Shown: positions 9,278-64,000 of the stretch, piece by piece
Layout of the letters: the number at the start of each line of letters is the position of its first letter
Position numbering within the stretch: position 1 is the first letter of the stretch
DNA from: Escherichia coli
Lineage (GTDB): Bacteria > Pseudomonadota > Gammaproteobacteria > Enterobacterales > Enterobacteriaceae
Direction: 5' to 3' (one strand)
Assembly: GCF_009931435.1 (NCBI RefSeq)
Contig: NZ_CP043414.1
Length of the DNA: 64,000 nt
The notes under the pieces: generated by a model
What the model saw: the letters and a program-made list of their open reading frames with translations, nothing else
Told to the model about the DNA's origin: nothing
The model's database searches: none
Made by a program: the position numbers and the translations under genes

Positions 9278-10407
9278 ACTAAGTGGTCTGCCATCATGGC
9301 ATCCTGTTTTCTGGATGCCATGGCATGGCGCAACAGCACGCTACCACAAGCCACCATACCGCCGATCAACGCAGAAAGGATCACGATAATCGCCTTACCC
9401 GGACCATCTTTTTTTACCGGTAATGACGGACGCAACTGATATTTAAACGGCGTAAAATTCACATCGTTGACATTTGTTTTTGTTAATTGCTCGACTAGAT
9501 ACTGACGATTACGTAATTCACCATTCAGCTCCGCAACGTCAGTGACCGCTTTTTCAATTTCCAGTTTACGTTCAATACCGTCTGCGCCGAGAGAAATAGA
9601 AAAGTCGGGGTCATCTTTAACTGCCTGACCATTGCTATAAACGGGCTTTTTAATTCCTGCCGCGTTGGCAATGTCGAGTGAATAATTGAGGCGCTGAATG
9701 TTTGCATCAAGTTGGTTTTTCGTTTTAATGCGATCCTGAGCCAGTTTTTCTTTTTCAAACTGGGTTTTGATTTCCAGTTTATTACGGACGTTTTCTAGCG
9801 ACTCTTTCACCACCAACGCAGAGATATAATCGATATACCCGCTCAAAACGGTCTGCGCCTCTTCACTGGTTGGCGCGGTGAAACTTAGCGTCCAGGAGGC
9901 ATACAGTGACGGTTCATCTTTTTTCTTACTGGCATTGTCATCAACCGCTTTCATTTTTTCGCTCAATGCGACGATAGCGCGATGCAAATCCAGTTCGTCG
10001 ATTTTCGCCTCTTTTAATTGGTCCATCACATAAGGTGATGAGCGCAGGTACTCTTCCAGTAAGCTAACAGACTGAAACTTCTTGATAAACAGGTTAAATG
10101 CTTCTGTACGATCAATTTTGATATCCAGATCCAGCACACGAAGCTTAGTGAATGTTTTCTCAAGCGCCTGCCACTGAACAGGTTCTGGAGGCGTGACAAC
10201 CGCCGCGCTGGTCCATTTTTGCGGCAGGATGAAAGAGATCAGTAAACCTGCGCAGGCAAACGCAAAAACGACCGCCATGACCGTTTTTTTGGCCCGCCAT
10301 AAAACTTCAATTAGATTAAGTAAATCAATTTCATTATTACTGGGCGACGCCAGAGGATACTCGGGAAAATGAGCGTCACTTCCCTGTTTAATATTCAGTG
10401 ATGACAT
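9274..10407 (-). CDS. fepE: Polysaccharide co-polymerase family protein FepE
   Basis: ORF containing MSSLNIKQGSDAHFPEYPLASPSNNEIDLLNLIEVLW...; start at the ATG at 10407-10405; convergent 4-nt overlap with the fepC stop. Confidence 0.88.
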   Translation of the reverse strand: MSSLNIKQGSDAHFPEYPLASPSNNEIDLLNLIEVLWRAKKTVMAVVFAFACAGLLISFILPQKWTSAAVVTPPEPVQWQALEKTFTKLRVLDLDIKIDRTEAFNLFIKKFQSVSLLEEYLRSSPYVMDQLKEAKIDELDLHRAIVALSEKMKAVDDNASKKKDEPSLYASWTLSFTAPTSEEAQTVLSGYIDYISALVVKESLENVRNKLEIKTQFEKEKLAQDRIKTKNQLDANIQRLNYSLDIANAAGIKKPVYSNGQAVKDDPDFSISLGADGIERKLEIEKAVTDVAELNGELRNRQYLVEQLTKTNVNDVNFTPFKYQLRPSLPVKKDGPGKAIIVILSALIGGMVACGSVLLRHAMASRKQDAMMADHLV

Positions 10408-10571
10408 GCGGTATAACCTGAAATGGGTCCAATAAGAGTAAATCTCCACGGCCCCCACTTTACCAGTTGGTGAGATTTATCCGAAGCTGAAGTTTGTAAA
10501 TTCCTCCCACTGAATGCAACATTCACTCTATTTCAGAGAAATATCCGTTAAATTGATAAATTAAATAAATA

Positions 10572-10608
10572 ATAAACCCATAATCATTTATTGTAATTAT
10601 GGGTTTAT
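10572..10608 (-). terminator. Perfect 13-bp inverted repeat hairpin downstream of entF (candidate intrinsic terminator)
   Basis: ataaacccataat (10572-10584) and attatgggtttat (10596-10608) are exact reverse complements with an 11-nt loop, in an AT-rich spacer immediately after the entF stop. Confidence 0.5.
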
Positions 10609-23593: not shown

Positions 23594-24889
<1,296 letters not shown>

Positions 24890-24896
24890 TTAAAAA

Positions 24897-24927
24897 ATCC
24901 GCTCTCATCGAATGGATGAGAGCGGAT
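24897..24927 (-). terminator. Perfect 13-bp stem hairpin between convergent ybdG and pheP (intrinsic terminator; the U-tract is on the pheP strand)
   Basis: atccgctctcatc (24897-24909), loop gaatg, gatgagagcggat (24915-24927); preceded on the plus strand by aaaaaa, giving a T-run on the minus strand. Confidence 0.6.
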
Positions 24928-24947
24928 TCAGATGGTTGACTTCGTTT

Positions 24948-24978
24948 TGTCGGATGCGGCGTGAACGCCTTATTTCCG
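24948..24978. repeat. REP-like palindromic unit overlapping the pheP stop
   Basis: tgtcggatgcggcgtgaacgccttatttccgac resembles the REP consensus. Confidence 0.5.
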
Positions 24979-26346
24979 ACGCAGCGTTTTAAACGCCACA
25001 AACAGGAATACAATCCACACCGGCAGCAAAATTGCCGACAAGCGCATATCATCCAACGTGCACATCAGCAGCAAAATCATGCCGAGGAAGGCAATGCAGA
25101 GATAGTTGCCGAACGGATAGAGCAGCGCTTTAAACTGTGTTTCTCGTCCCTGACGTCGCATCGCCGCGCGAAAACGCAGATGCGCCAGACAGATCATAAT
25201 CCAGTTCAACAGCAACGTTGCCACCACCAGCGCCATCAGCAGACCAAATGCTTTTTGCGGCAGCAGATAGTTGATCAACACCACCAGCGAAGTGATAGCC
25301 CCGGAAAGCATCAGCGAGTTAATCGGCACGCCGCGACGGCTGACGCGAGTCAAAAATTTCGGTGCATTACCCTGCACAGAAAGACCAAACAGCATCCGGC
25401 TGTTGGAGTAAACCCCACTGTTGTATACCGATAATGATGCTACCAGAATGACGAAATTCAGCGCAGAAGCCACCACATTGCTGTCGAGATTATGGAAAAT
25501 CATCACAAACGGGCTACTGTTAGATTTCACTTCCACCCACGGATAGAGCGCCAGTAAAACCACCAGTGAACCGATATAAAACAGCAGGATGCGATAAACC
25601 ACCTGATTTACCGCTTTTGGAATACTTTTTTCCGGATCGCGCGCTTCAGCGGCAGTAATCCCAATCAGCTCCAGACCGCCGAAGGAAAACATGATCACCG
25701 CCAGCGACAAAATCAGCCCATTCCAGCCCGTGGCGAAGAAACCACCGTAGCGCCAGAGGTTGTCGATACTGGCTTTCTCGCCGCCGTGACCAGAAAACAG
25801 CAGCCACAGGCCAAAGCCGATCATGCCGATGATCGCCAGCACTTTAATCAGCGCAAACCAGAACTCGGTTTCGCCATATAAGCGCACGTTCACCAGGTTA
25901 ACGGCGTTGATGATAATAAAGAAGGCGGCAGCCCAAATCCACGTTGGAACATCCGGGAACCAGTACTGCATATAGATGCCCGCAGCGGTCAGCTCAGCCA
26001 TCCCCACCAGTACGAACATCACCCAGTAGTTCCAGCCTGAGAGAAAGCCCGCAAACGGTCCCCAGTATTTATAGGCAAAGTGGGCAAACGAACCGGATAC
26101 CGGCTCCTCAACCACCATCTCGCCAAGCTGGCGCATAATCAGGAAAGCAATGATCCCGGCGACGCCGTAGCCCAACAATACAGCCGGACCTGCCATCTGA
26201 ATCGCCGGGCCAATGCCAAGAAACAGACCAGTACCAATAGCGCCACCCAGCGCAATCAGTTGAATATGACGGTTATGTAATCCGCGATGAAGCGTCGGCT
26301 CTTTATTCGACGCAGTATCTTCCGATACGGTTGACGCGTTTTTCAC
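24970..26346 (-). CDS. pheP: Phenylalanine-specific permease PheP (APC family)
   Basis: 458-aa product from the GTG at 26346 (MKNASTVSEDTASNKEPTLHRGLHNRHIQLIALGGAIGTGLF...). Confidence 0.92.
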   Translation of the reverse strand: MKNASTVSEDTASNKEPTLHRGLHNRHIQLIALGGAIGTGLFLGIGPAIQMAGPAVLLGYGVAGIIAFLIMRQLGEMVVEEPVSGSFAHFAYKYWGPFAGFLSGWNYWVMFVLVGMAELTAAGIYMQYWFPDVPTWIWAAAFFIIINAVNLVNVRLYGETEFWFALIKVLAIIGMIGFGLWLLFSGHGGEKASIDNLWRYGGFFATGWNGLILSLAVIMFSFGGLELIGITAAEARDPEKSIPKAVNQVVYRILLFYIGSLVVLLALYPWVEVKSNSSPFVMIFHNLDSNVVASALNFVILVASLSVYNSGVYSNSRMLFGLSVQGNAPKFLTRVSRRGVPINSLMLSGAITSLVVLINYLLPQKAFGLLMALVVATLLLNWIMICLAHLRFRAAMRRQGRETQFKALLYPFGNYLCIAFLGMILLLMCTLDDMRLSAILLPVWIVFLFVAFKTLRRK

Positions 26347-26447
26347 GCCTTTCCCCTGTGTGACTTTTTTGTTGAGGGGCACCTTTTAACATTTAGTGCC
26401 CATCGTCGCAAGACACAATCCACGCGGTTAAACCGGGTATCCTGCTT

Positions 26448-29400
26448 TTATTTCCGTACCCGGTGTCGGTGCAGCCACATCAGCTTATACGCCGCCGGAA
26501 TAATAAACAGCGACAGCAAAGGTGCGGTGATCATGCCGCCAATCATCGGCGCGGCAATCCGGCTCATCACCTCTGAACCTGCCCCCGTTCCCCACAAAAT
26601 CGGCAGCAGACCCGCGATAATCACCGCCACCGTCATCGCTTTCGGGCGCACGCGCAGTACCGCGCCGTGATATAACGCTTCATCCAGCTTCTGCTCGCTG
26701 AATGTTTGCGGATTATCCAGGGATGGATCTGCCTCTATGGCGTGACGTAAATACATCAACATCACCACGCCAAATTCGGCGGCGACCCCGGCGAGGGCGA
26801 TAAAGCCAGTGCCCGTCGCCACGGAAAGATGAAAGCCCATCCACCACAGCAACCAGATGCCGCCCACCAGCGCAAACGGTACGCTGCTGATAATCAGCAA
26901 CGCTTCGCCCACGCGACGGAACGCCAGATACAACAGCACGAAGATGATCATCAACGTCATCGGCACCATGAGTTTCAGCTTATGGTTGGCGCGCTCCAGT
27001 AGCTCGAACTGCCCGGAGAATGCCACGCTGGTGCCCGGTTTTAACTGCACTTTCCCGGCAATCGCTTTTTGCAAATCGTGAACCACCGACACCATGTCAC
27101 GATCGCGGGCATCGATATAAATCCAGCTTGTCGGGCGCGCATTCTCGGTTTTCAGCATCGACGGTCCGGTAGAGACTTTAACGTCGGCCACGTCTGCCAG
27201 GGTAATTTGCTGCTTCATTGGCGTCAGGATCGGCAGCTGGCGCAGCGCCTGTGGGCTATCGCGCCAGCTTTGCGGATAACGCAGATTAATTGGATAACGG
27301 GCAATCCCTTCCACCGTTTCACCAACCATCGCACCGCCCACCGCAGAAGTCACAAACAACTGCACATCCGCCACCGTCATACCGTAACGGGCGGCTTTTT
27401 CACGGTTGATCTCAACGTTGATATAGCGCCCACCTTCCAGACGTTCAGCAAGGGCAGAAGCCACGCCTGGCACCGTTCGCGCCACTTCTTCAATTTGCTC
27501 CGCCATCGCGTCGATATCCGCCAGCACAGTGCCGGAAACTTTAATGCCGATGGGGCTTTTAATGCCGGTCGAGAGCATATCGATACGGTTACGGATTGGC
27601 GGCACCCACAGATTCGCCAGCCCCGGCAGACGCACGGTGTTGTCCAGTTCCTCAATGATTTTGTCCATCGTCATGCCTGGCCGCCACTGATCCTGTGGCT
27701 TAAGCTGGATGGTCGTTTCTACCATCTCCAGCGGTGCGGAGTCGGTGGCGGTTTCCGCTTTCCCGGTTTTGCCAAACACCCGCGCCACTTCCGGCACGCT
27801 CATAATCAGCTTGTCGGTTTTTTGCAGCATACTCGCCGCCTCTGCTGCGGAAATCCCCGGCAGCGTCGATGGCATATACAACAAGTCGCCTTCATTGATC
27901 TGCGGTAAAAATTCCCCGCCAACTTTATTGAGCGGCCAGAGAACCGTAAGCACCGAAAGCGCTGCCACCAGCAGCGTGGTTTTCGGCCAGTGTAGTACTT
28001 TCAGCAACAGCGGATGATAAACACGAATCAAAAAGCGATTGAGCGGGTTACTGCTTTCTGGCGGAATTTTGCCACGGATCCAGTAGCCCATCAGGATGGG
28101 GATCACCACGATCGCCAGCAGCGCCGCGCCCGCCATCGCATACGTTTTGGTGAACGCCAGCGGGCCAAACAGACGCCCTTCCTGCCCTTCCAGGGTGAAG
28201 ATCGGGATAAACGACAGCGTGATAATCAGCAGACTGATAAACAGCGCCGGACCTACTTCAACAGATGCATCGGTGATCACCTGCCAGCGCGTTTTATTAT
28301 CCAGCGTGGCGTCAGGATGCTGGTGCTGCCACTCTTCCAGCCGTTTATGCGCATTCTCGATCATGACGATAGCGGCATCGACCATCGCCCCGACGGCAAT
28401 CGCAATACCGCCCAGCGACATAATATTGGCATTCAGTCCCTGGAAGTGCATGACAATAAAAGCAATACACAACCCCAGCGGCAACGAAATAATCGCCACC
28501 AGTGCCGAGCGCACATGCCAGAGAAACAGCGCGCAGACCATCGCCACCACAATAAACTCTTCCAGCAACTTGCCGCTGAGGTTGTCGATGGCGCGGTCAA
28601 TAAGCTGGCTGCGATCGTATGTTGTAACTATCTCCACGCCTTCCGGCAGACTGCTTTTCAGCGTTTCCAGTTTGTCCTTCACGGCGGCGATCACTTCACG
28701 GGCGTTTTTGCCGGAACGCAGGATCACCACCCCACCCGCCACTTCTCCTTCGCCATTCAGTTCGGCAATGCCCCGGCGCATTTCCGGGCCAACCTGGACC
28801 TTCGCAACATCACGCAGATAAACGGGCACGCCATTTTCACTGGCTTTTAAAACGATGTGATTAAAGTCGTCGAGCGTTTGCAGATAGCCGCTGGCGCGCA
28901 CCATATATTCCGCTTCCGCCAGTTCGATCGACGAACCGCCCGCTTCCTGGTTTGAAGCATCCAGCGCGCTTTTTACTTCGGCGAGACTGATGCCATATTG
29001 CGCCAGGCGCTGGGGATCGATAACCACCTGATACTCTTTCACCACACCACCTACCGACGCCACTTCCGCAACGTCAGGGATAGTTTTTAACTCATATTTG
29101 AGAAACCAGTCCTGCAATGAGCGTAAATCGGCCAGATCGTGCTTACCGCTGCGATCCACCAGTGCATATTCATAGATCCAGCCAACACCTGTGGCATCTG
29201 GTCCCAGCTCGGCGCTGACTCCCGCAGGCAGCTTACCCTGTACCTGGTTGAGGTACTCCAGCACCCGCGAGCGCGCCCAGTACGGATCGGTGCCATCTTC
29301 GAAAATGACATATACATAAGAGTCGCCAAACTGCGAGAAACCGCGCACAGTCTTCGCGCCAGGTACTGACAACATGGTGGTGGTTAGCGGATAAGTCACC

Positions 29401-44499: not shown

Positions 44500-45058
44500 C
44501 TTGCACCTATCATAAAATTAAAACAAGTTGATAGTAGTCAAATAACAACCAATTAAATACACAATCATAATCAGGATGATGTGCATTTATATTTTTATAC
44601 ACAAAATTATAGTTTGCAAATTTTAATAAATTTCATTTAAGATTAAATTATTATATGTATGTTGTTTTTTATTCTAACTTATTTCAAAGTTACATTTTTC
44701 AACGCTTACTATGCTTTTTATTAACATAAACTCACTACAACGCACCTGAAACCTCTTGCTATATATATGTCAACCGTTTGAATTTAAAATAAAAAGAGTA
44801 TCATTTTTACTTGCATTTCTTATCAAGTCACATTCAACAACAGTAAAAAAACATTATTAGAACCATTCAATTAACAAAAAACCAACATCCAGCTTGCTTA
44901 ATTTTTCTTTATTAAACGATATTGAAAATCAATTGATAAAATACATCTAAACAACCTTTTGGGGCGCAAAAGCATAACATCAAACAAACAAATAACACAC
45001 CGAAAAAACTCACAATTAATAACCTATGATATACATACTGTTTATTATGGTTGAATAA

Positions 45059-45200
45059 GCCACTCGATATCTGGTGCTACGGAAGTGTCCACACGGTTTA
45101 GCAGCACCCGATACTTTTTTCAGGCTTCCAGCAACGATCTTTCTTCCTCCGTTGCGATTTCCAGATCTACAGCATCCTGCAGTGGCGCAATATACTCACT
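45059..45200. repeat. Direct repeat copy A of the tfa 3'-end segment (partner at 46119-46260)
   Basis: About 140 bp at roughly 85-90 percent identity to 46119-46260, by manual alignment. Confidence 0.7.
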
Positions 45201-45305
45201 GAATTCCTGGATGTAGAACTGTGTAGTGACGGTCTTCCAGCCATTCGGCTCCTGCTGTATTGAAGCATACCAGGCTATTTCAATATCGCTATGCTGCGGC
45301 AGCAT
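45120..45305 (-). pseudogene. tfaX: Tail fibre assembly protein C-terminal remnant (tfaX-like)
   Basis: 61-aa ORF ending ...[23 protein letters not shown], homologous only to the C-terminal part of the intact Tfa at 46095-46679; lies in a duplicated roughly 140-bp segment. Confidence 0.7.
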
Positions 45306-45443: not shown

Positions 45444-46040
45444 TTGGGAGTATCAAATCGGCTTGCATGGGGATGTCCTACAAAGGAACACCTTCTTCCA
45501 CACCTTCTTCCACACTTTCTGGAACATTTAGGTAACAACCATCTGGATATTGGTGTTGGAACTGGGTTTTACCTTACTCACGTACCTGAGAGTAGTCTGA
45601 TATCTTTAATGGATTTGAACGAAGCTAGCCTGAACGCGGCATCTACAAGGGCTGGGGAATCAAAAATTAAACATAAAATTAGCCATGATGTTTTTGAACC
45701 TTATCCCGCGGCGTTACATGGTCAATTTGATTCCATTTCCATGTCTTACCTTCTTCACTGCCTGCCTGGAAATATATCTACAAAAAGCTGTGTAATACGC
45801 AATGCGGCGCAGGCCTTAACTGACGATGGAACTCTATACGGAGCCACAATTCTTGGCGATGGAGTTGTGCACAATAGCTTCGGTCAAAAACTGATGCGCA
45901 TTTACAATCAGAAAGGCATCTTTTCAAACACAAAAGATTCCGAAGAAGGCTTAACACATATACTCTCAGAGCATTTCGAGAATGTTAAAACCAAGGTTCA
46001 AGGTACTGTAGTAATGTTTTCCGCTTCAGGAAAAAAATAG
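45444..46040 (+). CDS. ybcY: Putative class I SAM-dependent methyltransferase (YbcY-like), possibly N-terminally truncated or a pseudogene
   Basis: 198-aa ORF with glycine-rich motif I (LDIGVGTGFY); the only in-frame start is a TTG, with no upstream ATG or GTG before the stop at 45375. Confidence 0.55.
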   Translation: MGVSNRLAWGCPTKEHLLPHLLPHFLEHLGNNHLDIGVGTGFYLTHVPESSLISLMDLNEASLNAASTRAGESKIKHKISHDVFEPYPAALHGQFDSISMSYLLHCLPGNISTKSCVIRNAAQALTDDGTLYGATILGDGVVHNSFGQKLMRIYNQKGIFSNTKDSEEGLTHILSEHFENVKTKVQGTVVMFSASGKK

Positions 46041-46094: not shown

Positions 46095-46679
46095 TTACTC
46101 CCTGACAGGGTTCGTAGGCCACTCAATATCAGGTGCAGTTGATGTATCAACACGGTTCAGCAACACCCGATATTTTTTCCAGGCTTCCAGCAATGAGGTT
46201 TCTTCCTCCGTTGCGATTTCCAGATCTACAGCATCCTGAAGTGGCGCAATATGCTCACTGGCTACCTGCATCAGGCTGTTTTTTGTTTCTTCCGCCTCCC
46301 GAATCCGGAACAGTTTTTCTGCTTCTGCATCTTTCACCCAGGCTGTACCGTTCCACTTCTGAAACTCCCCTTCCGGCGATAACCAGGTAACATTTTCCGG
46401 TAACGGACCGAGTTCAGAAATAAATAACGCGTCCCCTGACGCTACGTCATAAACCGTTTTACCCCGATGATCTTCAACGAGATGCCACGATGACTCATCA
46501 CTGTTGAAAACAGCCACGAAGCCAGCTGGAATATCTGGCGGTGCAATGTCGGTACTGTTTGCTGGCAGACCTGTATGAGGCGGAATATATGCGTCACCTT
46601 CACCAATAAATTCATTAGTTCCGGCCAGCAGATTATAAATTGTTATGGTCCGTGGTTGTTCACTCATTCTGAATGCCAT
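46095..46679 (-). CDS. tfa: Tail fibre assembly protein Tfa
   Basis: 194-aa [56 protein letters not shown]...; start overlaps the stf stop. Confidence 0.9.
46119..46260. repeat. Direct repeat copy B of the tfa 3'-end segment (inside the intact tfa)
   Basis: Partner of 45059-45200. Confidence 0.7.
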
Positions 46680-49600
46680 TATGCAAGCCTCACAATATAG
46701 TTAAATGCGATGTTTTTGACGGTGTTTTCCGCGTTACCAGCAGCGTTAACGGTGATGGTGTGTCCATGTGAGCCAATCGCAACCGAGTGCGTATGAGCAC
46801 CAATACCGACAGTATGTGCGTGTGCACCTGCGCTTGCTGCAGTGCCGGACAGTGAGTGGGTATGAGCACCATCTGATGATGTCTTCCCTGCATTACGAGT
46901 CTGGCCACTACCGCTTGTTGTGCTCATAATCCCCGCGCTTGGATTTGAAATCGCGGTATAACCATTAGGGAAAATGCTCGTGTTCGTGCCACCAAATGCA
47001 CCGGAACTCTTGTGTTGGTGCGCACCGGCACTATTTGCGGTCCCGCTAATACTATGGGTATGCGCCCCGGTGTTATTCGTGGATTTGGTTCCGTAATCAA
47101 ACGACGATGTGGTTTTCGTCCCCAAATCCGTACTGGATGCGCTGGCGCTGTGGGTATGCGATTTAATGCCGTCCTGTTCCTGAGACAATACGGCCCGACC
47201 ACTGGCAGGTTTGCCCTTAATCGTCCAGCCACGCATATCAGGGATCACGCCTGACGGATAAGCCGCTGCAAGTTTCGGGTAGGCAGATTTGTCAAAAGCC
47301 TGCCCCTGCATCAGGGCATAGCCAGACGGAACGGTATCTGATGGCCACGGGATTGGTGCGCCGACTGGGTAGCTTTCTGGTGGAAGATTTTTCGAGGTAT
47401 AAACTTCTGCCCAGTCTTCCTCAAAACCATAGCCATCTCTTGAGGAACGGTAGAACAGACCTCCATTTCTGTAATGCGCCTTCATCTGCAGGGTCCGGCA
47501 ACTTCCGACTCCGGTATAGAAGTTAACCAGAATATAGCTGTCGCCAGAGCGGGTGACATTGTAAGCGCCTGATTCGGCATTCCAGGGAACGCCACCATCC
47601 GCATCGGCATATGTATCCGTTGCCCTTCTGGCAAAAGCAGCCACATGCGCGGCGGTTAAAGTAATATCTTTGGAACCATCAAACTCAACACCAGAAACCA
47701 GTCTTGGCGTTTGCAGCTTTGTTGCTGTTAATGCATTACCGTTCAGACTTGCGGACAGTTTGGTTCCAATAATCAGTTCGCCGGTTGCGTTATCAATAGC
47801 AAACGGTCTTAATGTATTCCAGCCACCATAAACATCACCTTGATTGGTAAGCAGCAGGTAAGTTTTAGCGCCATCATTACGCCATAATGCACCATACTCC
47901 CCACCTATCATTCGAATCTGATTACCACCACGCGCTACAATTTCGTCTGTGGCAAAAAGTTTTTTGCACGACAAGTTATCGTTAACGATTAACGAATGAG
48001 ACTCATAAAAACCACGCCCACTCTTAAAATCAAGGATAACGTCCGCCGCGATACATTCAGTCGCCGGATTTGTTGCCCCAAACTTATAGGTCGTATCATT
48101 AACAACGAGATCAGCACCAGGTGCGGATATTGACAGGCCATCTTCGATAAACGCAAAAACAGGGAAAGCAGCGCCATCAACATAGAACACAGAGCGCAAA
48201 TCATCGCCCTTATTACTCATCATTATTGAGTGGATGGCTCGTTCATTGTTTTGATATTGCCAGAACATTCCATAAGCATAACGCCCCCTGTCAGTCCAGC
48301 CACCAGGCATAACAAATCCGTTAAACTCGCAGTTATTCATCGGATCGCCTGCGGTTCGCGTTGCCGTGGTGATAATGACCCTTGATGCCAGTTCGCTTAC
48401 TGAGCCAGCAGAACGCATAACAACAACAGGGTAATATTTTCCAGATGTTGCACCTGCAGGAGCGTTAACCCGCACATAACGCATACCACGCTTATCAGCA
48501 AAGTCTGTTTTACTGACCGCGTTAATGTTGTTCAGGAAGCGTCCCTTATCGGGTATATCAGCGCCGTTCTGGTCTTTCTGCAGACGTTTCTCTGCATTGT
48601 CATAGGCTGATTTTACTGCCTTTGGCGTTGCCGCCAGCGTTTCAGACGTACTGTTGGTCGCACTGCTGAGCTGTACTACCCCCTTTTTCGTCGTGCTCGC
48701 ATCCTCAAGCGCCACGGCGGATGCAATATCCTCTGCCCGTTTTGCCGCTGTCTCGGCGCGCGTTGCCGCGGATTCCGCCGTACTTTTGCTCTGAGCTGCC
48801 GCCGTCGCACTGCCAGCTGCCTCTGTCGCCTTCGTGGATGCCGTCGTGGCGCTGCTCTTCGCTGCTGACGCTTGTCTGGTCGCCTCATCTTTTGAAGCAG
48901 ACGCAGATGATGCCGATGACGCCGCCGAACTGGCTGACGATGCGGCAGCCGTTTTTGAGGATTCTGCGCTGGTTTCCGACGCTTTCGCGTTCGTTTCGGA
49001 TGTCTTCGCTGCGGAAGCAGAACTCGCTGCTGCGCTGGCCTGTTCAGTGGCTTCGCCAGCCTTCGTTGTGGCTGTTGAAGCAGACGATGCGGCACTTTCT
49101 GCCGACTTTCCGGCAGCGGTGGCACTGGCTGAGGCCTGCCCGGCACTTGTTGACGCGGCGCTGGCAGATGATGCAGCCGCTGTTTTTGAGTCTGCTGCTG
49201 CGGAGGCACTCTGTTCCGCTGCCGTCTCAGAAGACTTAGCGTTCGTCTCGGACGTTTTTGCCGCCTTCGCGGAATTTCCTGCCGCCGTTGCCGAGGAAGC
49301 TGCGCTACTGGCGCTCGAGGATGCGTTCGTTTCTGATGATTTCGCTGCCTCTTTTGAGGCCGCCGCATCCCTGGCTGAGGTGGCAGCTTCTGACGCTTTC
49401 CTGGTCGCGGTGGATGCAGAAGTGGCTGCTGATTGTTGTGACGCTGCGGCATTCGTTTCTGACGTTTTCGCCGCACCGGCACTGGTGGCCGCCGCGCTTT
49501 TTGAGGACTCTGCAGCGGCAGCACTTTTTTCCGCTTCAGTGGCCTTTGCTGATGCCGTTCCTGCGCTGGAAGATGCTGACTGAGCCGACGACGCGGCCTG

Positions 49601-50086
49601 TCCGGCTGACGTGCTGGCTGCGCGTGCTGAGCCTGCAGCATCAGTCGCATGGGTTGCCGCCTCACTGGCAGATGTGCTGGCATCGCCGGCTGACTTCTTC
49701 GCGGCTGCCGTGTTTTGTGCCACCGCGGACGCGTTACGCGCCACCTCTTCCACCATCAGTTCAAAACGGCGCAGAGCCTCCGGACGGGCATCATCCTCCG
49801 TCATGGCACCGAGAAAATCATTCAGCGTACCGGGTCGGGAATCTTCATACACGGTGATGGTCCCGGCATGTGACGGCGGGAATCCTTCCACCAACAGAAT
49901 AACGCTGTACTGACCGTACTCAACGTCCATGCTGTAACGCCCGGCTTCATCCGGATTTTCTGAGGCCAGCGTGTTCACCACCACCGCGGTGCTGTTACGT
50001 TTTGCTTTCAGCTGGATTGTGCAGTTCTGTACCGGTTTTCCTGTGCCGTCTTTCAGTACACCTGAAATCTTTACTGCCATATTCAC
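46679..50086 (-). CDS. stf: Side tail fibre protein Stf (lambda Stf / StfR-like)
   Basis: 1135-aa [40 protein letters not shown]...; long Ala/Ser/Thr-rich repetitive shaft; C-terminal His-rich GAHTHS-type motifs and ...[13 protein letters not shown]. Confidence 0.9.
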
Positions 50087-50144: not shown

Positions 50145-50744
50145 TCAGAACTTATAACCGACACCCACGATGAAACCGTCAGTGCGCCAGTCGCCACTGC
50201 CGGAGCCTTCATAAGCAATATCAATGGCCACGGATTCGGTCGGGTTAAACTACACGCCAGCTCCCCACGCCAGAGACGTGTTGCTGTGGCGACCGTCATC
50301 ACTTCCGGTCAGCACGTCGTGCGTTTTCCCCTTGTTGTCAGTTACGCGGAGATAATCCCCGGAGAAAGTCGACACACGGCTGTAAGCCATACCCGCCATC
50401 GCATACGCGCTGAACCATTCATTCACGCGCACAGACGGCCCCACCATCACGCTGAACCAGCGGTTACGCACGGAATCTTCATGCCAGCGGGTATTGCTGT
50501 AACGGGTAAGCTGGCGATTCTTGTCTCCTGCATAGCTGAATGACGTCACCAGCCCCAGTGTGTCCGTAAACTCATAACGGTATTTCACGTTAATCCCGTT
50601 AAGATCATCGCTGCCGGGAACGTTCGTCGAGGCATGAAGATACCCCGCGCTCAGCGTGGACTGATGTTCAGATGCCCATGCAGGCGCACCGGATACGGTC
50701 AGACAAATGGCTGCGGACAAAATGGCGGCATAAAGTTTACGCAT
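50145..50744 (-). pseudogene. lom: Lom-like outer membrane protein gene interrupted by an in-frame amber codon
   Basis: 164-aa ORF MRKLYAAILSAAICLTVSGAPAWASEHQSTLSAGY... stops at TAG (50252-50250); the same frame continues FNPTESVAIDIAYEGSGSGDWRTDGFIVGVGYKF to a TGA at 50147-50145, with Q expected at the TAG position. Confidence 0.75.
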
Positions 50745-54286: not shown

Positions 54287-54958
54287 TCAGCGACCAATCA
54301 CCACAACCTGACCACCATCCCCTTCGTCTGCCGTGCTGATCTCCTGAGAGACCACCCGCGACCCCACGCGCATTTCACCGTACAGAACCGGCAGAACATT
54401 GCCCTGGGCAACCATGTTATCCAGTGAGGAGAAATAGGTGTTCTGTTTGCCGTTATCCGTTGTCTGTGTACGGGGAGTTCTGGCTTTCGGTGCCAGCATC
54501 TGCGCCACACCACCGAGCACCATACTGGCACCGAGAGAAAACAGGATGCCGGTCATACCACCGGCCCCAATGGCTGCCCCCCATGCTGCAAGGGTGGCCC
54601 CGGCGGTAAAGAATGATCCGGCAATGGCGGCAGCCCCCAGGACAATCTGGAATACGCCACCTGACTTGGCCCCGGCGACTCTGGGAACAATATGAATCAC
54701 AGCGCCATCAGGTAGAGTCTCATGTAACTGCGCCGTTAATCCGGACGTGCTGACATCCTGCCCGGCAATCCGTACCTGATACCAGCCGTCGCTCAGTTTC
54801 TGACGAAACGCCGGGAGCTGTGTGGCCAGCGCCCGAATGGCTTCAGCCCCCGTTTTCACACGAAGGTCGATGCGGCGGCCAAATCGTTGCAAATCCCCGT
54901 AAAGGCAGATGCGCGCCATGCCCGGTGACGCCAGAGGGAGTGTGTGCGTCGCTGCCAT
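54287..54958 (-). CDS. I: Tail tip assembly protein I
   Basis: 223-aa ORF MAATHTLPLASPGMARICLYGDLQRFGRRIDLRV... (lambda gpI-like). Confidence 0.9.
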   Translation of the reverse strand: MAATHTLPLASPGMARICLYGDLQRFGRRIDLRVKTGAEAIRALATQLPAFRQKLSDGWYQVRIAGQDVSTSGLTAQLHETLPDGAVIHIVPRVAGAKSGGVFQIVLGAAAIAGSFFTAGATLAAWGAAIGAGGMTGILFSLGASMVLGGVAQMLAPKARTPRTQTTDNGKQNTYFSSLDNMVAQGNVLPVLYGEMRVGSRVVSQEISTADEGDGGQVVVIGR

Positions 54959-55599
54959 TTGTCGGTATACCTCTCTCGTTTGCTCAGTTGTTCAGGAATA
55001 TGGTGCAGCAGCTCGCCATCACCACAGTAAATGGCGGCATGATTCGGCACCGATGAACCAAAACAGCACAGCAGCACATCGCCCGGTTGTGCTGATGACA
55101 ACGGCACCTGATACAGCCCTGTGGCCTCCAGATTATCCAGATAGAGATTCTGACCGTGACGCCACCAGTCATCCTCGCGATGAAAATCCGGCATCTCAAT
55201 CCCCGCCAGATGATAAGCATCCCGGAATAGCGTGTAACAGTCCGTCACCCCGTGTTCAAAGCGCCGCCCGGTGAGATGCGGCACACAGCGGAACTTATGA
55301 ATCGTCCCCCGGCAGACCAGCCACCACGGCAAATCACTCTGCACCTGCAGCCGCCGGTCAGCCTCACTCAGCCAGGGCAGACCACCGGGGTGGCTGTGGA
55401 CCAGCGCCACAATCTCACCCTGCATCTCTGCCCGCAGCCAGTCCTCCGGCGACATCCGGAAATACTCCTCCGGCTCACCGGAGATATTCACGCAGGGAAA
55501 ATATCTTTCCCCTTCCGGCGTTCTCACCACGAAGCCGCACGACTCCGCTGGCGCACATCGCCGGGCGTGCGCCAGAATCGCTGATTCTGTCTCTGTCAT
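54856..55599 (-). CDS. K: Tail tip assembly protein K (JAMM/MPN plus NlpC/P60 domains); 3' boundary relative to lambda K uncertain
   Basis: 247-aa ORF MTETESAILAHARRCAPAESCGFVV... with HSHP motif; starts 5 nt after the L stop and overlaps I by 103 nt. Confidence 0.8.
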   Translation of the reverse strand: MTETESAILAHARRCAPAESCGFVVRTPEGERYFPCVNISGEPEEYFRMSPEDWLRAEMQGEIVALVHSHPGGLPWLSEADRRLQVQSDLPWWLVCRGTIHKFRCVPHLTGRRFEHGVTDCYTLFRDAYHLAGIEMPDFHREDDWWRHGQNLYLDNLEATGLYQVPLSSAQPGDVLLCCFGSSVPNHAAIYCGDGELLHHIPEQLSKRERYTDKWQRRTHSLWRHRAWRASAFTGICNDLAAASTFV

Positions 55600-56303: not shown

Positions 56304-56632
56304 CAGTTCACCACCTGTTCAAACTCTGCGCTGAACTCAACACGCAGCATACTGACCCGCGACGACCATTTTGCGCAGGTCACCTTTATCTGCCGCCACT
56401 CATAAGGCGGCGTCCACAGAAAGGATTTCCAGCCCCCGTGCTCTTCCAGAAACGACTCCAGTACCGTGGCCTCCTCACGGGGGACAGAAAGCGTCACGCT
56501 GTACGTTTTCAGGTTGGCATTCAGCCCGGCAGGCGCTCGCTGGGAATAGCCATCACCAAAGCGCACCTTTCTTACAGAAGGGACCGAAGCCACATCCATA
56601 CCGGGTTTCACTTTCCAGCGGAAGGTCTTCAT
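56303..56632 (-). CDS. M: Tail tip assembly protein M
   Basis: 109-aa ORF MKTFRWKVKPGMDVASVPSVRKVRFGDGYSQRAPAG... Confidence 0.9.
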   Translation of the reverse strand: MKTFRWKVKPGMDVASVPSVRKVRFGDGYSQRAPAGLNANLKTYSVTLSVPREEATVLESFLEEHGGWKSFLWTPPYEWRQIKVTCAKWSSRVSMLRVEFSAEFEQVVN

Positions 56633-59208
56633 CGTCCACCTCCGGAGAACAGGCCACCATCACGCATCTGTGTCTGAATTTCATCACGGGCACCCTTGCG
56701 GGCCATGTCATACACTGCTTTCATCATCTGTGGACCTGGCAGACCATTCGTACCGTCGTTCTGAATCACCACGTTGTTGTTCTGCTCAAACCTGATACCC
56801 TCTGAACGCCGCATTTGCGCCGGACTTCCGGTGCCACCGACATAACCGCCGGTGGCATAGCCGCGCATCAGCCGGTAGAGATTTCCCACGCCAATCCGGC
56901 TGGTTGCCTCCTTCGTGAAGACAAATTCACCACGGTGAACAATCCCCGCTGGCTCATATTTGCCGCCGGTTCCCGTAAATCCTCCGGTTGCAAAATGGAA
57001 TTTCGCCGCAGCGGCCTGAATGGCTGTGCCGCCTGACGCGGATGCGCCGCCACCAACAGCCCCGCCAATGGCGCTGCCGATACTCCCGACAATCCCCACC
57101 ATTGCCTGCTTAAGCAGAATTTCTGTCATCATGGACAGCACGGAGCGGGTGAAGCTGCGCCAGTTCTGCTCACTGCCGGTCAGCATCGCCGCCATATTCT
57201 GTGCAATACCATCAAAGGTCTGCGTGGCTGCACTTTTTACCTGCGACATACTGTCCGTGGCGCTCTCTTCCCACTCACTCCAGCCGGACTTCAGGCCTGC
57301 CATCCAGCTCCCGCGAAGCTGGTCTTCAGCCGCCCAGGTCTTTTTCTGCTCTGACATGACGTTATTCAGCGCCAGCGGATTATCGCCATACTGTTCCTTC
57401 AGGCGCTGTTCCGTGGCTTCCCGTTCTGCCTGCCGGTCAGTCAGCCCCCGGCTTTTCGCATCAATGGCGGCCCGTTTTGCCCGTTGCTGCTGTGCGAATT
57501 TATCCGCCTGCTGCGCCAGCGCGTTCAGGCGCTCCTGATACGTAACCTTGTCGCCAAGTGCAGCCAGCTGGCGTTTGTACTCCATCGTCTCATCTTTATG
57601 CGCCAGCAGGGATTTCTCCTGTGCGGACAGCTGGCGACGTTGTGCCGCCTCCTCCAGTACCGCGAACTGACTTTCTGCCTTCCACAAATCCCGGCGCTGC
57701 TGGCTGATTTTCTCATTTGCTCCGGCATGCTTCTCCAGCGTCCGGAGTTCAGCCTGAAGCGTCAGCAGGGCAGCATGAGCACTGTCTTCCTGACGATCGC
57801 CCGCAGACACCTTCACGCCGGACTGTTTCGGCTTTTTCAGCGTCGCTTCATAATCCTTTTTCGCCGCCGCCATCAGCGTGTTGTAATCCGCCTGCAGGAT
57901 TTTCCCGTCTTTCAGTGCCTTATTCAGTTCTTCCTGACGGGCGGTATATTTCTCCAGCGGCGTCTGCAGGCGTTCGTAAGCCTTCTGCGCCTCTTCGGTA
58001 TATTTCAGCCGTGATGCCTCAGACTCGACCCAGTCCTTTGCTGCCATCTCTCTGGCCTTTTCAAGATCGGCCTGCAACGTGGCGGCTGAAAGCCCAAGTT
58101 GCGCATTCGCTCTGTCCTCCCATGCTCCCCGGAGATTGGCAAGAAATGCTGAGGTTTTACCGCGCCGGTGGCTCCGGCTCTGATACCACTGCCATTTTTT
58201 GTCCGCCTCATCAAAAGCCTTTTCTGCTTTCTCCAGCATTCCCTGGGCAGTGTCCGGGCGACCAATATCCAGCACCGAATCCCACATGGATTTGAATGCC
58301 CGTGCTGTCCTGTCTGCCCAGGTCTCCAGCGTGCCCATGTTCTCTTTCAGGCGGCGGGTCTGGTCATCAAACCCTTTCGTTGCGGCCTCGTTCGCCGCCT
58401 GCAATGCCCCGGCTTCATCGCCGGAACGCTGCAACTGAGCAACATACGCAATCTGCTCCGCCGTCACGTTATGGAACTGGCGTGCCATCGCCGTCAGCCC
58501 CGACGTCGGGTCTGTGGTCAGCTTCCCGAAGGCTTCAGCGACCTTGTCCACCTCCACGCCGGATGCAGAGGAGAAACGCGCCACACTCTGGCTGATGGAC
58601 GCAATCTGAGCCTCACCGCTTACCCCCGCCTTAACCAGTGCGCTGAGTGACTCGCTGGTCTGGTTAAACGTCAGCCCTGCCGCCTGCCCGGCTCTGGACA
58701 GGACCAGCATGCGATCTGCCGTCAGACCCGACTGATTGCCGGAAAGGACCAGCGTTTTGTTGAAATCGGACAGGGTTGAGTTGCCCTGATACCAGGCATA
58801 CGCCAGCGCACCGGTCGCCACCGCCAGCGAGGTGGCCCCGACCATCGGCAGGGTGATCGCACCGGCAAGCCCCCTGAACATGGGGATCATCCCGCCGAAG
58901 GAGTCCTTAACCTGACCACCCTGTTGCAGCAGGATCAGCCACGGACTTTGCCCGCCTGCAAACTGCGTGGCCACGTCGGTGAACTGTGCAGGCAGCATAC
59001 GCATGGCGGCTTTATACTGCCCGACGGAAATCCCCGCTTTCTGTGCAGCCAGCGCCTGTCGGCTCAGCGACTGTTCAACGACTGCCGCTGTTTTTTTCGC
59101 ATCAGTTTCCGTACCGGAAAAATGACGCCTGACTCTGGCCATCTGCTCGTCAAATCTGGCCGCATCCAGACTTAAATCAACGACCAGATCGCCTACCGGT
59201 TCAGCCAT
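56629..59208 (-). CDS. H: Tail tape measure protein H
   Basis: 859-aa ORF MAEPVGDLVVDLSLDAARFDEQMARVRRHFSGTETDAKK... Confidence 0.93.
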   Translation of the reverse strand: MAEPVGDLVVDLSLDAARFDEQMARVRRHFSGTETDAKKTAAVVEQSLSRQALAAQKAGISVGQYKAAMRMLPAQFTDVATQFAGGQSPWLILLQQGGQVKDSFGGMIPMFRGLAGAITLPMVGATSLAVATGALAYAWYQGNSTLSDFNKTLVLSGNQSGLTADRMLVLSRAGQAAGLTFNQTSESLSALVKAGVSGEAQIASISQSVARFSSASGVEVDKVAEAFGKLTTDPTSGLTAMARQFHNVTAEQIAYVAQLQRSGDEAGALQAANEAATKGFDDQTRRLKENMGTLETWADRTARAFKSMWDSVLDIGRPDTAQGMLEKAEKAFDEADKKWQWYQSRSHRRGKTSAFLANLRGAWEDRANAQLGLSAATLQADLEKAREMAAKDWVESEASRLKYTEEAQKAYERLQTPLEKYTARQEELNKALKDGKILQADYNTLMAAAKKDYEATLKKPKQSGVKVSAGDRQEDSAHAALLTLQAELRTLEKHAGANEKISQQRRDLWKAESQFAVLEEAAQRRQLSAQEKSLLAHKDETMEYKRQLAALGDKVTYQERLNALAQQADKFAQQQRAKRAAIDAKSRGLTDRQAEREATEQRLKEQYGDNPLALNNVMSEQKKTWAAEDQLRGSWMAGLKSGWSEWEESATDSMSQVKSAATQTFDGIAQNMAAMLTGSEQNWRSFTRSVLSMMTEILLKQAMVGIVGSIGSAIGGAVGGGASASGGTAIQAAAAKFHFATGGFTGTGGKYEPAGIVHRGEFVFTKEATSRIGVGNLYRLMRGYATGGYVGGTGSPAQMRRSEGIRFEQNNNVVIQNDGTNGLPGPQMMKAVYDMARKGARDEIQTQMRDGGLFSGGGR

Positions 59209-59641
59209 ACCGGACTCCTCCTGCGATCCCTTCTGATACTGTCATCAGCATTACGTCATCCTCCGTCATGTCCGCCACATCCGGGGAAGCGGGGATAACT
59301 TCATTCCCGTCCGGGCCAAAGCGGACACCTCCGGCAAGCCCTGCCGCTTTCTGCATCAGCACATCATCTTCAGGCTCTTCGTCAGCCTCGCGCCGGTTAA
59401 GCAGACTGAAATCCAGCGGATGCATATCCGGATCGCTGAAAAACAGGCTGAGCACGGTGTACGTCAGCCCGGAAAAGTGCATATCCAGCAGAACATCATG
59501 AAAATAATGGGTACTGTAAAAGCGGTGCCAGTCGGCATACTCCGTGGATGACATCCCGGCAAGCATGGCACGCCAGTCGGGTCGCCCCATCTCACGCGCC
59601 AGTTTCAGGGCAAAACTCAGCTCACCGTCGAACACTTTCCC
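59201..59641 (-). CDS. T: Tail assembly chaperone T segment, expressed as a G-T fusion by -1 programmed ribosomal frameshift
   Basis: ORF in the -1 frame relative to G, beginning at the slippery site; no independent ribosome-binding site or ATG is expected. Confidence 0.8.
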   Translation of the reverse strand, partial: GKVFDGELSFALKLAREMGRPDWRAMLAGMSSTEYADWHRFYSTHYFHDVLLDMHFSGLTYTVLSLFFSDPDMHPLDFSLLNRREADEEPEDDVLMQKAAGLAGGVRFGPDGNEVIPASPDVADMTEDDVMLMTVSEGIAGGVRYG

Positions 59642-60039
59642 GCAGAAACAGGCTCTGCAGGCCCGGCGTCCTCTGTCTGTTCAGGGGTATTATTCACAAC
59701 AAACTCATACATTCCGGACAGCCGGTACACCACGTTTTCAGCATGAGAAATTGCCTCTGTGGGCCAGGTGGTAAGCACTTCCTGTTCAATCTGTTTAACG
59801 GCTTCATTCATGGACGGCATCTGCGTCTTCTTCGGATGGTTATGCCACAGGGACATCGCCACCACACAAGCACCGGTTCTGATGACGTCTTCCACAGTAA
59901 CCTGCCGGTTGCTGTCTGACTCCGCCTGTTCTGCCTGCCGTTTCATCAGGGCGAGATGCTCAATACGCTGCAGGGCTGACAGTTCAGAAAGCGTGACGGT
60001 CACGCCGTTATGTTCAAATGATTCGGTTTTCAGGAACAT
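59617..60039 (-). CDS. G: Tail assembly chaperone G
   Basis: 140-aa ORF MFLKTESFEHNGVTVTLSELSALQRIEHLALMKRQAEQ... ending ...SAGKCSTVS. Confidence 0.9.
   Translation of the reverse strand: MFLKTESFEHNGVTVTLSELSALQRIEHLALMKRQAEQAESDSNRQVTVEDVIRTGACVVAMSLWHNHPKKTQMPSMNEAVKQIEQEVLTTWPTEAISHAENVVYRLSGMYEFVVNNTPEQTEDAGPAEPVSAGKCSTVS
59635..59641 (-). other. Slippery heptamer G GGA AAG for the G/GT -1 frameshift
   Basis: Minus-strand reading GCG GGA AAG in the G frame, with the T frame reading GGG AAA GTG; identical in form to the canonical lambda G-T slip site. Confidence 0.8.
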
Positions 60040-60054
60040 CGCTGACTCTCCGGA

Positions 60055-60795
60055 TTAACTGGCGGTGACGGTGATTTCTGCAACCGCAGCAAACTCACCA
60101 TTACCGGATACGACCGGAATGTTGACCTTACCTGCAGCAACGCCATTCACGGTGATGGTCATACCACTGACCGACACGGTGGCTTTTGTTTTATCCGCTG
60201 ACACCGCACGGAAGCTCTTGTCGGTTGCGCCTTCCGGCTGGAATGCCACGGTCAGCGTGGTGCTCTGCCCTTTCACCACCGAGGTGCTGGCAGGCGTCAC
60301 AGTCATGCCGGTTGTCGCCGTCACCGTGCTGCGATCTTCTGCCATCGACGGACGGCCCACATTGGTGACCTTCACCGTGCGGGTGATCACTTCCTTCGCC
60401 GTCACCGCCTTACCGATACTGCTGACCCAGCCGCGGAACACATCGACCGTGCCGTTCGGGAAGCGGATTTTATAGGCTCGGGTATCCCCTTCATTAAACC
60501 ACGCCAGCAGCGCCTGCTGCCCCTGCTCTCCGGGCATCCACGCCAGCGTGAAGCTGGTATCTCCGGCAGATTTCTGCCCCTGTCCGGTCGCGGTCCAGTC
60601 CGCATCTTCATCATCGAGATAACTGTCGTCATAGGACTCAGCGGTCAGTTCGCCGGGCGTCAGGTCTTTAACTTTAGCCAGACGCGACCAGTCAACGTCT
60701 GAAAGCGGGTTCGCATAAGGGTCACCGTTCCCCTTATAAACCCACAGTGTGGTCCCGGCCCCTTTCACCGGTGCCAGAGGATTTGGTGTTGGCAT
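60055..60795 (-). CDS. V: Major tail tube protein V
   Basis: 246-aa product from the ATG at 60795 ([34 protein letters not shown]...); C-terminal Ig-like region. Confidence 0.92.
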
Positions 60796-63667: not shown

Positions 63668-64000
63668 TTAAACGATGCTGATTGCCGTTCCGGCAAACGC
63701 GGTCCGTTTTTTCGTCTCGTCGCTGGCAGCCTCCGGCCAGAGCACATCCTCATAACGGAACGTGCCGGACTTGTAGAACGTCAGCGTGGTGCTGGTCTGG
63801 TCAGCAGCAACCGCCAGAATGCCAACGGCAGCACCGTCGGTGGTGCCATCCCACACAACCAGCTTACGGGTGGAGGTGTCCAGCATCAGCGGGGTCATTG
63901 CAGGCGCTTTCGCACTCAATCCGCCGGGCGCGGTTGCCGTATGTGCCGGGTCACTGTTGCCCAGCGGCTGGTAATGGGTAAAGGTTTCTTTGCTCGTCAT
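63668..64000 (-). CDS. D: Head decoration protein D
   Basis: 110-aa [55 protein letters not shown]...; the ATG is the last three bases of the window. Confidence 0.92.

What the first reader, a model, noticed from the sequence alone, without database searches (positions are those of the whole stretch)
59201..60039. Canonical G / G-T programmed -1 frameshift with an intact slippery heptamer
G (140 aa) ends ...GKCSTVS, and the T frame opens exactly at the minus-strand heptamer G GGA AAG (59641-59635) in the -1 frame. The frameshift site is intact and in the expected position, which argues that the tail assembly module is functional rather than decayed.
Basis: partly seen in the sequence, partly recalled or inferred. 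Interest (0 to 1): 0.3.

Follow-up and report, generated by a model that had tools for sequence, protein, structure and literature searches.

The report
Phage lambda G/G-T tail-chaperone frameshift site
This is the well-known ribosomal frameshift site of phage lambda's tail-assembly chaperone genes G and T, sitting intact in a lambda-like prophage of an E. coli chromosome; it is ordinary and already fully described.

Summary
On the minus strand, G (60039..59617, 140 aa, ending GKCSTVS) contains GGGAAAG at 59641-59635 in the phase G GGA AAG. The -1 frame stays open from there to a stop at 59203-59201, giving a 279-aa G-T fusion.

The 951-base region is 97.9% identical to lambda 9650-10600. Bases 59400-59658, which include the slip site, are identical to lambda. 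The T segment is 100% identical in protein. G and T match the NCBIfam equivalogs for lambda G and T.

The heptamer alone occurs at chance frequency in the window; context and homology give it meaning. In 86 distinct related loci, a shifty site ending in A AAG (two end A AAA) always lies 13 codons before the same T motif. The next codon is a start codon in only 18 of them, so T is made as a fusion.

I found no conserved RNA stimulator. The cassette occurs in 3701 of 5426 complete E. coli genomes.

All tail genes in the window are full length. However, an intact slip site is weak evidence of function: relatives keep it beside a broken J or a broken T.

Already known; low interest.

The parts
59617..60039 (-). 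Gene G, tail assembly chaperone (140 aa; ATG 60039-60037, TGA 59619-59617)
   Evidence: ORF. TIGR01674 phage_lambda_G equivalog scores 211.8 bits (cutoff 74.45) and PF06894 gives 5.9e-59. It differs from lambda G at 7 of 140 residues.
59635..59641 (-). Slippery heptamer G GGA AAG, in X XXY YYZ phase relative to G, 5 codons before the G stop
   Evidence: Identical in sequence and position to lambda 10109-10115. G_GGA_AAG is named as the lambda slip site in PMC7618472 and in Table 1 of PMC3296357.
59201..59641 (-). T segment in the -1 frame: GGG AAA, then 144 codons, then TGA 59203-59201. It is expressed only as the C-terminal part of the 279-aa G-T fusion (G residues 1-135 plus 144 residues).
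   Evidence: TIGR01715 phage_lam_T equivalog scores 185.8 bits (cutoff 77.35) and PF06223 gives 7e-14 on the fusion. The protein is 100% identical to lambda T, with one synonymous nucleotide change.
59617..59680 (-). Overlap in which both the G frame and the -1 (T) frame are open. The upstream -1 frame stop is TGA 59683-59681.
   Evidence: 61-nt overlap, the same as in lambda.
60046..60051 (-). Shine-Dalgarno-like GGAGAG upstream of the G start codon, in the 15-nt V-G spacer
   Evidence: Read directly from the sequence. Inferred function, not tested.
60055..60795 (-). Gene V, major tail tube protein (upstream neighbour)
   Evidence: tblastn against lambda V: residues 1-247 including the stop, 97.6% identity.
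56629..59208 (-). Gene H, tape measure protein (downstream neighbour; 859 aa). Its ATG 59208-59206 overlaps the last T codons.
   Evidence: 90.7% identity to lambda H, full length.

Best explanation
This is the tail assembly chaperone locus G/T of a lambda-type prophage, expressed by programmed -1 ribosomal frameshifting.

Most ribosomes translate G (140 aa) and stop at TGA 59619-59617. A small share, about 4% in lambda, slip back one base. This happens when the tRNAs reading GGA and AAG re-pair with GGG and AAA at G GGA AAG (59641-59635). Those ribosomes then read GTG TTC GAC ... to the stop at 59203-59201 and make a 279-aa G-T fusion.

By homology with lambda, the G part of both proteins coats the tape measure protein H. 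The T part of the rare fusion recruits the tube protein V, so the tube polymerises to the length set by H. Neither protein stays in the finished tail. The roughly 30:1 G:G-T ratio is set by the slip efficiency, which depends on tRNA-Lys(mnm5s2UUU).

Shown here: the sequence, the phase, the open frames, the homology, the gene order and the conservation. Inferred from lambda: that the slip occurs, its rate, and the roles of the proteins.
For: - Coordinates, phase and open frames.
- Similarity to lambda: 97.9% nucleotide identity, no indels, and bases 59400-59658 identical.
- The T protein is 100% identical to lambda T; G differs at 7 of 140 residues.
- Equivalog-level matches to TIGR01674 and TIGR01715 and to Pfam PF06894 + PF06223.
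- Position between V and H, with the whole lambda Z-to-J order preserved.
- Conservation of the slip site in relatives down to 36% protein identity: GGGAAAG (lambda group, Stx2a phages), AAAAAAG (Stx1 phages, CP-1639) and GGAAAAG (N15, where GenBank annotates it as the slippery sequence; phi80; cdtI).
- In 86 distinct loci the site always lies 13 codons before the LARE motif of T. The following codon is GTG in only 18 of 86; otherwise it is GTC, GCG, GCC, GTA, GCA or ATA. T therefore has no conserved start of its own.
- Literature on lambda: about 96% zero frame (PMC3296357); 30:1 ratio, G binds H and T binds V (PMC5009743); dependence on tRNA-Lys modification (PMC3296357, PMC7618472).
Against: Nothing in the sequence argues against it. 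The limits are these:
- No expression data exist for this prophage.
- The heptamer alone is at chance frequency in the window.
- GenBank and PGAP annotate T as a separate 144-aa CDS starting at the GTG, a legacy convention.
- No stimulatory RNA element could be shown, so efficiency rests on the heptamer alone, as is assumed for lambda.
Confidence: 0.95

Rival explanations
1. T is a separate gene, translated on its own from GTG 59635-59633 into a 144-aa protein, as GenBank and PGAP annotate it. On this reading the heptamer is incidental.
For: An ORF finder starts T at that GTG. The lambda RefSeq record and PGAP list T as its own CDS.
Against: There is no Shine-Dalgarno motif at a usable distance: the 14 nt before the heptamer are GAGCCTGTTTCTGC, and the only G-rich run is the heptamer itself, 0-6 nt from the GTG. 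The corresponding codon is not a start codon in 68 of 86 distinct relatives, yet T-frame protein conservation runs right up to the slip site. N15 is annotated as the 'downstream half of translational frameshift product'. The literature reports gpGT, not free gpT (PMC5009743, PMC3296357).
Confidence: 0.02
2. The cassette is sequence-intact but belongs to a prophage that is defective elsewhere. The slip site would then be a well-preserved relic and says nothing about current tail production.
For: - The prophage sits at the DLP12 position next to appY/ompT, where E. coli K-12 carries a defective prophage (context; the K-12 DLP12 status is from my own knowledge).
- The Lom-family gene in the window has a premature stop.
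- Relatives keep an intact G-T beside a frameshifted J (CD45) or keep the heptamer with a broken T (L074).
- The cassette is in 3701 of 5426 E. coli genomes, median 2 copies. Many of those prophages are likely defective; this last point is an assumption from general knowledge, not tested.
Against: Every lambda tail and head-completion gene visible in the window (D, E, FI, FII, Z, U, V, G, T, H, M, L, K, I, J, tfa) aligns full length including its stop, and stf is a single uninterrupted ORF. lom is dispensable for phage growth (own knowledge). The related prophage in CD45 carries terminase, portal, protease, lysis and Q genes.
Confidence: 0.3
3. The frame change is made at the RNA level, by transcriptional slippage of RNA polymerase on the A run, rather than by the ribosome.
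For: None specific. The site contains a short A run, and the Stx1-type relatives have six A's.
Against: Three A's are far shorter than the homopolymer runs known to cause transcriptional slippage (own knowledge). What is conserved is the in-phase tandem-slip pattern ending in A AAG, not run length. Altering tRNA-Lys modification changes the lambda G:G-T ratio, which points to the ribosome (PMC3296357).
Confidence: 0.01

Closest known systems
Bacteriophage lambda genes G and T (gpG / gpGT; slip site G GGA AAG at lambda 10109-10115; Levin, Hendrix & Casjens 1993; Xu, Hendrix & Duda 2004, 2013, 2014, as cited in PMC5009743)
   Same: Same gene order (V-G-T-H), the same ORF lengths (140 aa and 144 codons), and the same heptamer, phase and distance to the G stop (5 codons). 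The 61-nt overlap is the same, the nucleotide sequence is identical from 59400 to 59658, and the T protein is identical.
   Different: G has seven amino-acid substitutions (K46Q, F47V, A52V, F58C, L59V, Q70K, A118T, written lambda to window) and there are 13 silent or flanking nucleotide changes. The neighbouring H is 859 aa rather than 853. None of these touches the slip site.
Escherichia phage Chlobot (PP925838.1) and the lambda-like prophages of E. coli genomes
   Same: Chlobot is 99.5% identical over the 951 bases, with the same G variant. The closest genomic copies are 99.6% identical, and PGAP names them 'phage tail assembly chaperone G' and 'phage tail assembly protein T'.
   Different: Chlobot has one amino-acid difference in T (L to F). 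In Chlobot G is annotated only as 'hypothetical protein' and T as a shorter CDS.
N15 gp14/gp15, and the G/T homologues of phi80 and cdtI
   Same: Homologous G and T segments with a -1 slip at the aligned position. N15's GenBank record marks it as 'slippery sequence for -1 translational frameshift'.
   Different: The heptamer is G GAA AAG instead of G GGA AAG. Protein identity is 36-53%. In the cdtI group the G stop is 1 codon after the heptamer rather than 5.
dnaX-type bacterial -1 frameshifting (A AAA AAG with an upstream SD-like element and a downstream hairpin)
   Same: Tandem tRNA slippage on a heptamer ending in A AAG, read by E. coli tRNA-Lys (PMC5009743).
   Different: No SD-like element lies within 20 nt upstream, and no supported downstream hairpin was found. 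The frameshift is low level: about 4% in lambda (PMC3296357), far below dnaX (dnaX level from own knowledge).

Membership tests
Lambda-type G / G-T tail assembly chaperone pair made by -1 programmed ribosomal frameshifting | Two overlapping ORFs located between the major tail tube gene and the tape measure gene | tested here: met
   V is at 60795-60055, G at 60039-59617, the T frame runs to 59201, and H is at 59208-56629.
Lambda-type G / G-T tail assembly chaperone pair made by -1 programmed ribosomal frameshifting | The upstream ORF is a gpG homologue | tested here: met
   TIGR01674 equivalog 211.8 bits (cutoff 74.45); PF06894 197.8 bits (cutoff 27); 133 of 140 residues identical to lambda G.
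Lambda-type G / G-T tail assembly chaperone pair made by -1 programmed ribosomal frameshifting | The downstream ORF, in the -1 frame, is a T homologue | tested here: met
   TIGR01715 equivalog 185.8 bits (cutoff 77.35); PF06223 52.5 bits (cutoff 25.9); 100% identical to lambda T.
Lambda-type G / G-T tail assembly chaperone pair made by -1 programmed ribosomal frameshifting | A slippery heptamer X XXY YYZ in the zero-frame phase, inside the overlap and shortly before the G stop | tested here: met
   G GGA AAG at 59641-59635, 5 codons before the TGA. It is the only in-phase XXXYYYZ in the overlap.
Lambda-type G / G-T tail assembly chaperone pair made by -1 programmed ribosomal frameshifting | The downstream segment has no translation start of its own | tested here: inconclusive
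   A GTG follows the heptamer here, but there is no SD at a usable distance. The codon is not a start codon in 68 of 86 distinct relatives. The comparison argues against a start; direct proof needs protein data.
Lambda-type G / G-T tail assembly chaperone pair made by -1 programmed ribosomal frameshifting | A fusion protein is actually produced at a few percent of G and is needed for tail assembly | not testable with these tools
   Known for lambda (PMC5009743, PMC3296357). No expression data exist for this prophage.
Stimulated -1 frameshift signals (heptamer plus a downstream hairpin or pseudoknot, or an upstream SD-like element) | A stable, conserved RNA structure starting 5-9 nt after the heptamer | tested here: not met
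   The window's 107-nt fold has z = -1.43. A structure suggested by 9 sequences failed on 25 representatives: 74% of cells paired, 7 pairs with compensatory change against 6.5 in shuffles, and an RNAalifold consensus of -1.5 kcal/mol.
Stimulated -1 frameshift signals (heptamer plus a downstream hairpin or pseudoknot, or an upstream SD-like element) | An SD-like element about 10-14 nt upstream of the heptamer | tested here: not met
   No GGAG, GAGG or AGGA within 20 nt upstream in the window; absent in 61 of 86 distinct relatives.

The most novel reading that the evidence does not exclude
In the lambda subgroup only, the GC-rich hairpin CUGGCGCG...CGYGCCAG may tune the slip efficiency, and so the G:G-T ratio. 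It runs from window 59601 to 59566, starts 33 nt after the heptamer, and is closed by an outer helix that starts 8 nt after the heptamer. My data show that it is not conserved across the wider family and is not significantly stable. They cannot exclude a lineage-specific role, because the lambda-group sequences do not vary there.
Probability: 0.05. Interest if true: 0.3.

Novelty: already known. Interest (0 to 1): 0.04.

Why it matters
It matters little beyond correct annotation. The site is the textbook lambda G/G-T recoding signal, present in about two thirds of complete E. coli genomes.

Two practical points follow:
- Automatic annotation (GenBank lambda, PGAP) still lists T as a free-standing 144-aa gene. 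The real product is the 279-aa fusion.
- An intact slip site should not be used by itself to call a prophage tail module functional.

Tried and rejected
**1. A conserved RNA stimulator downstream of the slip site.** RNAalifold on 9 sequences gave two helices with 95% of cells paired, 5 compensatory pairs and 0 of 500 shuffles reaching the observed values. I then fetched 160 more loci from IMG/VR, located the slip sites, and reduced them to 24 representatives more than 5 mismatches apart, plus the window sequence. On these 25 sequences pairing fell to 74%. Pairs with compensatory change numbered 7, against 6.5 in shuffles (252 of 500 shuffles reached this). RNAalifold found no consensus. I rejected it as a family feature. 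The first signal came from a few lineages and from conservation of the encoded LAREMGRPDWRAML motif.

**2. An upstream SD-like stimulator.** None was found.

**3. The heptamer as a statistical signal on its own.** It occurs at chance frequency.

**4. A solved structure of G-T.** No PDB sequence matched at E <= 0.01.

**5. Primary papers.** PMC3762263 (Xu et al. 2013) is not held, and Levin et al. 1993 is not in the library. Statements about lambda therefore rest on reviews and on Maynard et al. 2012. The running text of PMC3296357 prints the slip site as 'GGGTTTG', while its Table 1 gives GGGAAAG.

**6. Exact source genome.** I did not identify it. The best 24-kb matches in complete E. coli genomes are about 97% identical.
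Full report
**Observation.** On the minus strand of the window, an ORF runs from ATG 60039 to TGA 59619-59617. It encodes 140 aa ending ...PAEPVSAGKCSTVS. GGGAAAG occupies 59641-59635. Its first G is the third base of a GCG codon, so the zero frame reads G GGA AAG, the X XXY YYZ pattern of tandem -1 slippage. The -1 frame reads GGG AAA GTG TTC GAC... and continues for 146 codons to TGA 59203-59201, with no early stop. The coordinates 59201-60039 therefore span exactly the G start to the T stop.

One detail needs correcting. The -1 frame is already open 13 codons before the heptamer, from 59680 after TGA 59683-59681. What starts at the heptamer is only the first start-type codon (GTG 59635) that an ORF finder picks.

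**Is it more than chance?** The heptamer alone is not. There are 9 copies in the window against 7.6 expected from shuffles. The evidence is homology and conservation.

**Identity.** The 951 bases 59150-60100 match lambda 9650-10600 at 97.9% with no indels. The best phage match is Chlobot at 99.5%. Of the 20 differences from lambda, 17 lie in G codons 12-127 and cause 7 amino-acid changes. One is a synonymous change in T, and two lie outside G and T, in V and H. Bases 59400-59658, including the slip site and 235 nt after it, are identical to lambda.

The predicted fusion is G residues 1-135 followed by 144 residues of T, 279 aa in all. It matches NCBIfam equivalogs TIGR01674 (phage tail assembly chaperone G) and TIGR01715 (phage tail assembly protein T) far above their cutoffs. 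It also matches Pfam PF06894 and PF06223. No solved structure shares detectable sequence similarity.

**Context.** Lambda D, E, FI, FII, Z, U, V, G, T, H, M, L, K, I, J and tfa all align to the window full length, in the lambda order, with their stop codons. G-T lies between V (60795-60055) and H (59208-56629).

The window is an E. coli chromosomal segment. The tail end of the prophage adjoins appY, ompT, envY, ybcH and nfrA. In a related genome (strain CD45) the same prophage continues into terminase, portal and lysis genes (essD, rrrD, rzpD) and quuD, rusA and ybcN, which is the DLP12 position.

**Comparative test.** In annotated phages down to 36% protein identity, an in-phase shifty site sits at the aligned position:
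- GGGAAAG in the lambda group and Stx2a phages.
- AAAAAAG in Stx1 phages and CP-1639.
- GGAAAAG in N15 (whose GenBank record labels it the slippery sequence), phi80, cdtI and Ayreon.

I added 160 IMG/VR loci. Of the resulting 86 distinct loci, 43 have GGAAAAG, 36 GGGAAAG, 4 AAAAAAG, 2 GGCAAAA and 1 CGCAAAG. The site always lies 13 codons before the LARE motif of T. The codon that follows is GTG in only 18 of 86; elsewhere it is GTC, GCG, GCC, GTA, GCA or ATA. T-frame protein conservation nevertheless runs up to the slip site. T therefore has no conserved start of its own, which fits expression as a fusion and argues against the database convention of a separate T CDS.

**Mechanism.** By homology with lambda, about 96% of ribosomes finish G and about 4% slip to make G-T (PMC3296357). 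The roughly 30:1 ratio is critical for tail assembly. G and the G part of G-T bind the tape measure protein H. The T part binds the tube protein V and starts its polymerisation. Neither protein is in the virion (PMC5009743). G_GGA_AAG is intrinsically shift-prone in E. coli (PMC5009743), and the rate responds to thiolation of tRNA-Lys (PMC3296357, PMC7618472). All of this is inferred for the present copy; none of it was measured.

**Search for a stimulator.** The 107 nt from the heptamer fold no better than shuffles (z = -1.43). RNAalifold on 9 sequences suggested two helices with compensatory changes, and 0 of 500 shuffles reached the observed values. On 25 representatives from the enlarged set, pairing fell to 74% of cells. 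The number of pairs with compensatory change equalled the shuffles (7 against 6.5). RNAalifold returned no consensus.

The early signal is explained by a few lineages and by the conserved coding of LAREMGRPDWRAML. No SD-like element lies within 20 nt upstream. The site therefore behaves as an unassisted, low-efficiency slip, as is generally assumed for lambda. A lambda-lineage-specific hairpin cannot be excluded, because those sequences do not vary in that stretch.

**The 'functional rather than decayed' inference.** The tail genes visible in the window are indeed all intact. The side tail fibre gene is a single 1135-aa ORF, where lambda's reference sequence has it split. But the slip site is poor evidence for this:
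- CD45 has an intact G-T beside a J gene marked frameshifted.
- IMG/VR L074 keeps GGGAAAG with a broken T frame.
- The window's own Lom-family gene has a premature stop.
- The rest of the prophage lies beyond position 64000.

**How ordinary is it?** The cassette is found in 3701 of 5426 complete E. coli genomes, with a median of two copies per genome.

**Verdict.** This is the known lambda G/G-T programmed -1 frameshift, present here as a near-identical copy. It is already known, and interest is very low.

Noticed in passing
window 50145-50744 (-): The Ail/Lom-family outer-membrane gene downstream of J has an in-frame stop at codon 165 (50250-50252). The CD45 relative has Gln there and a full 199-aa protein. 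This is one sign of decay in an accessory gene of this prophage.
   Followed up: partly
window 46679-50086 (-): The side tail fibre gene stf is one uninterrupted 1135-aa ORF followed by an intact tfa (46095-46679). The lambda reference has it split into orf-401 and orf-314.
   Followed up: partly
window 45048-45227 (-) and 45444-46040 (+): A 60-codon remnant of a second tail-fibre-assembly gene (73% to lambda Tfa residues 132-191) lies between the prophage end and appY. Next to it is a 198-aa ORF, at the place where a related genome has a 'recombinase family protein'. This may be a leftover of an invertible tail-fibre segment.
   Followed up: no
window 59150-60100 (-): Divergence from lambda is very uneven. 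Seventeen of the 20 nucleotide differences fall in G codons 12-127, while the 440-nt T segment has a single synonymous change. The same pattern holds against strain CD45 (18 differences in G, 1 in T). It could be a mosaic joint near the slip site or stronger constraint on T; this is unresolved.
   Followed up: partly
window 56629-59208 (-): The tape measure gene H encodes 859 aa against 853 in lambda. A stretch around 58020-58223 does not align to lambda at the DNA level.
   Followed up: no
L074 (IMGVR_UViG_2537562188_000009) 1008-1014; L045; L013 (E. coli CD45) 24520-28016: These are examples of decay next to an intact slip site. L074 keeps GGGAAAG but its T frame ends after 79 codons. L045 has an in-frame 15-codon deletion in T between two GACTGGC repeats. 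CD45 has an intact G-T but a J gene that PGAP marks frameshifted.
   Followed up: partly
L131-L139 (IMG/VR), about 977-996: One lineage has GGCAAAA at the conserved position and a GGAAAAG four codons upstream. Which of the two is the slip site there is unclear.
   Followed up: no
window 54856-55599 (-): The K (C40 peptidase) ORF is 247 aa, the same length as the PGAP call in CD45. The lambda RefSeq record annotates only the last 199 codons.
   Followed up: no
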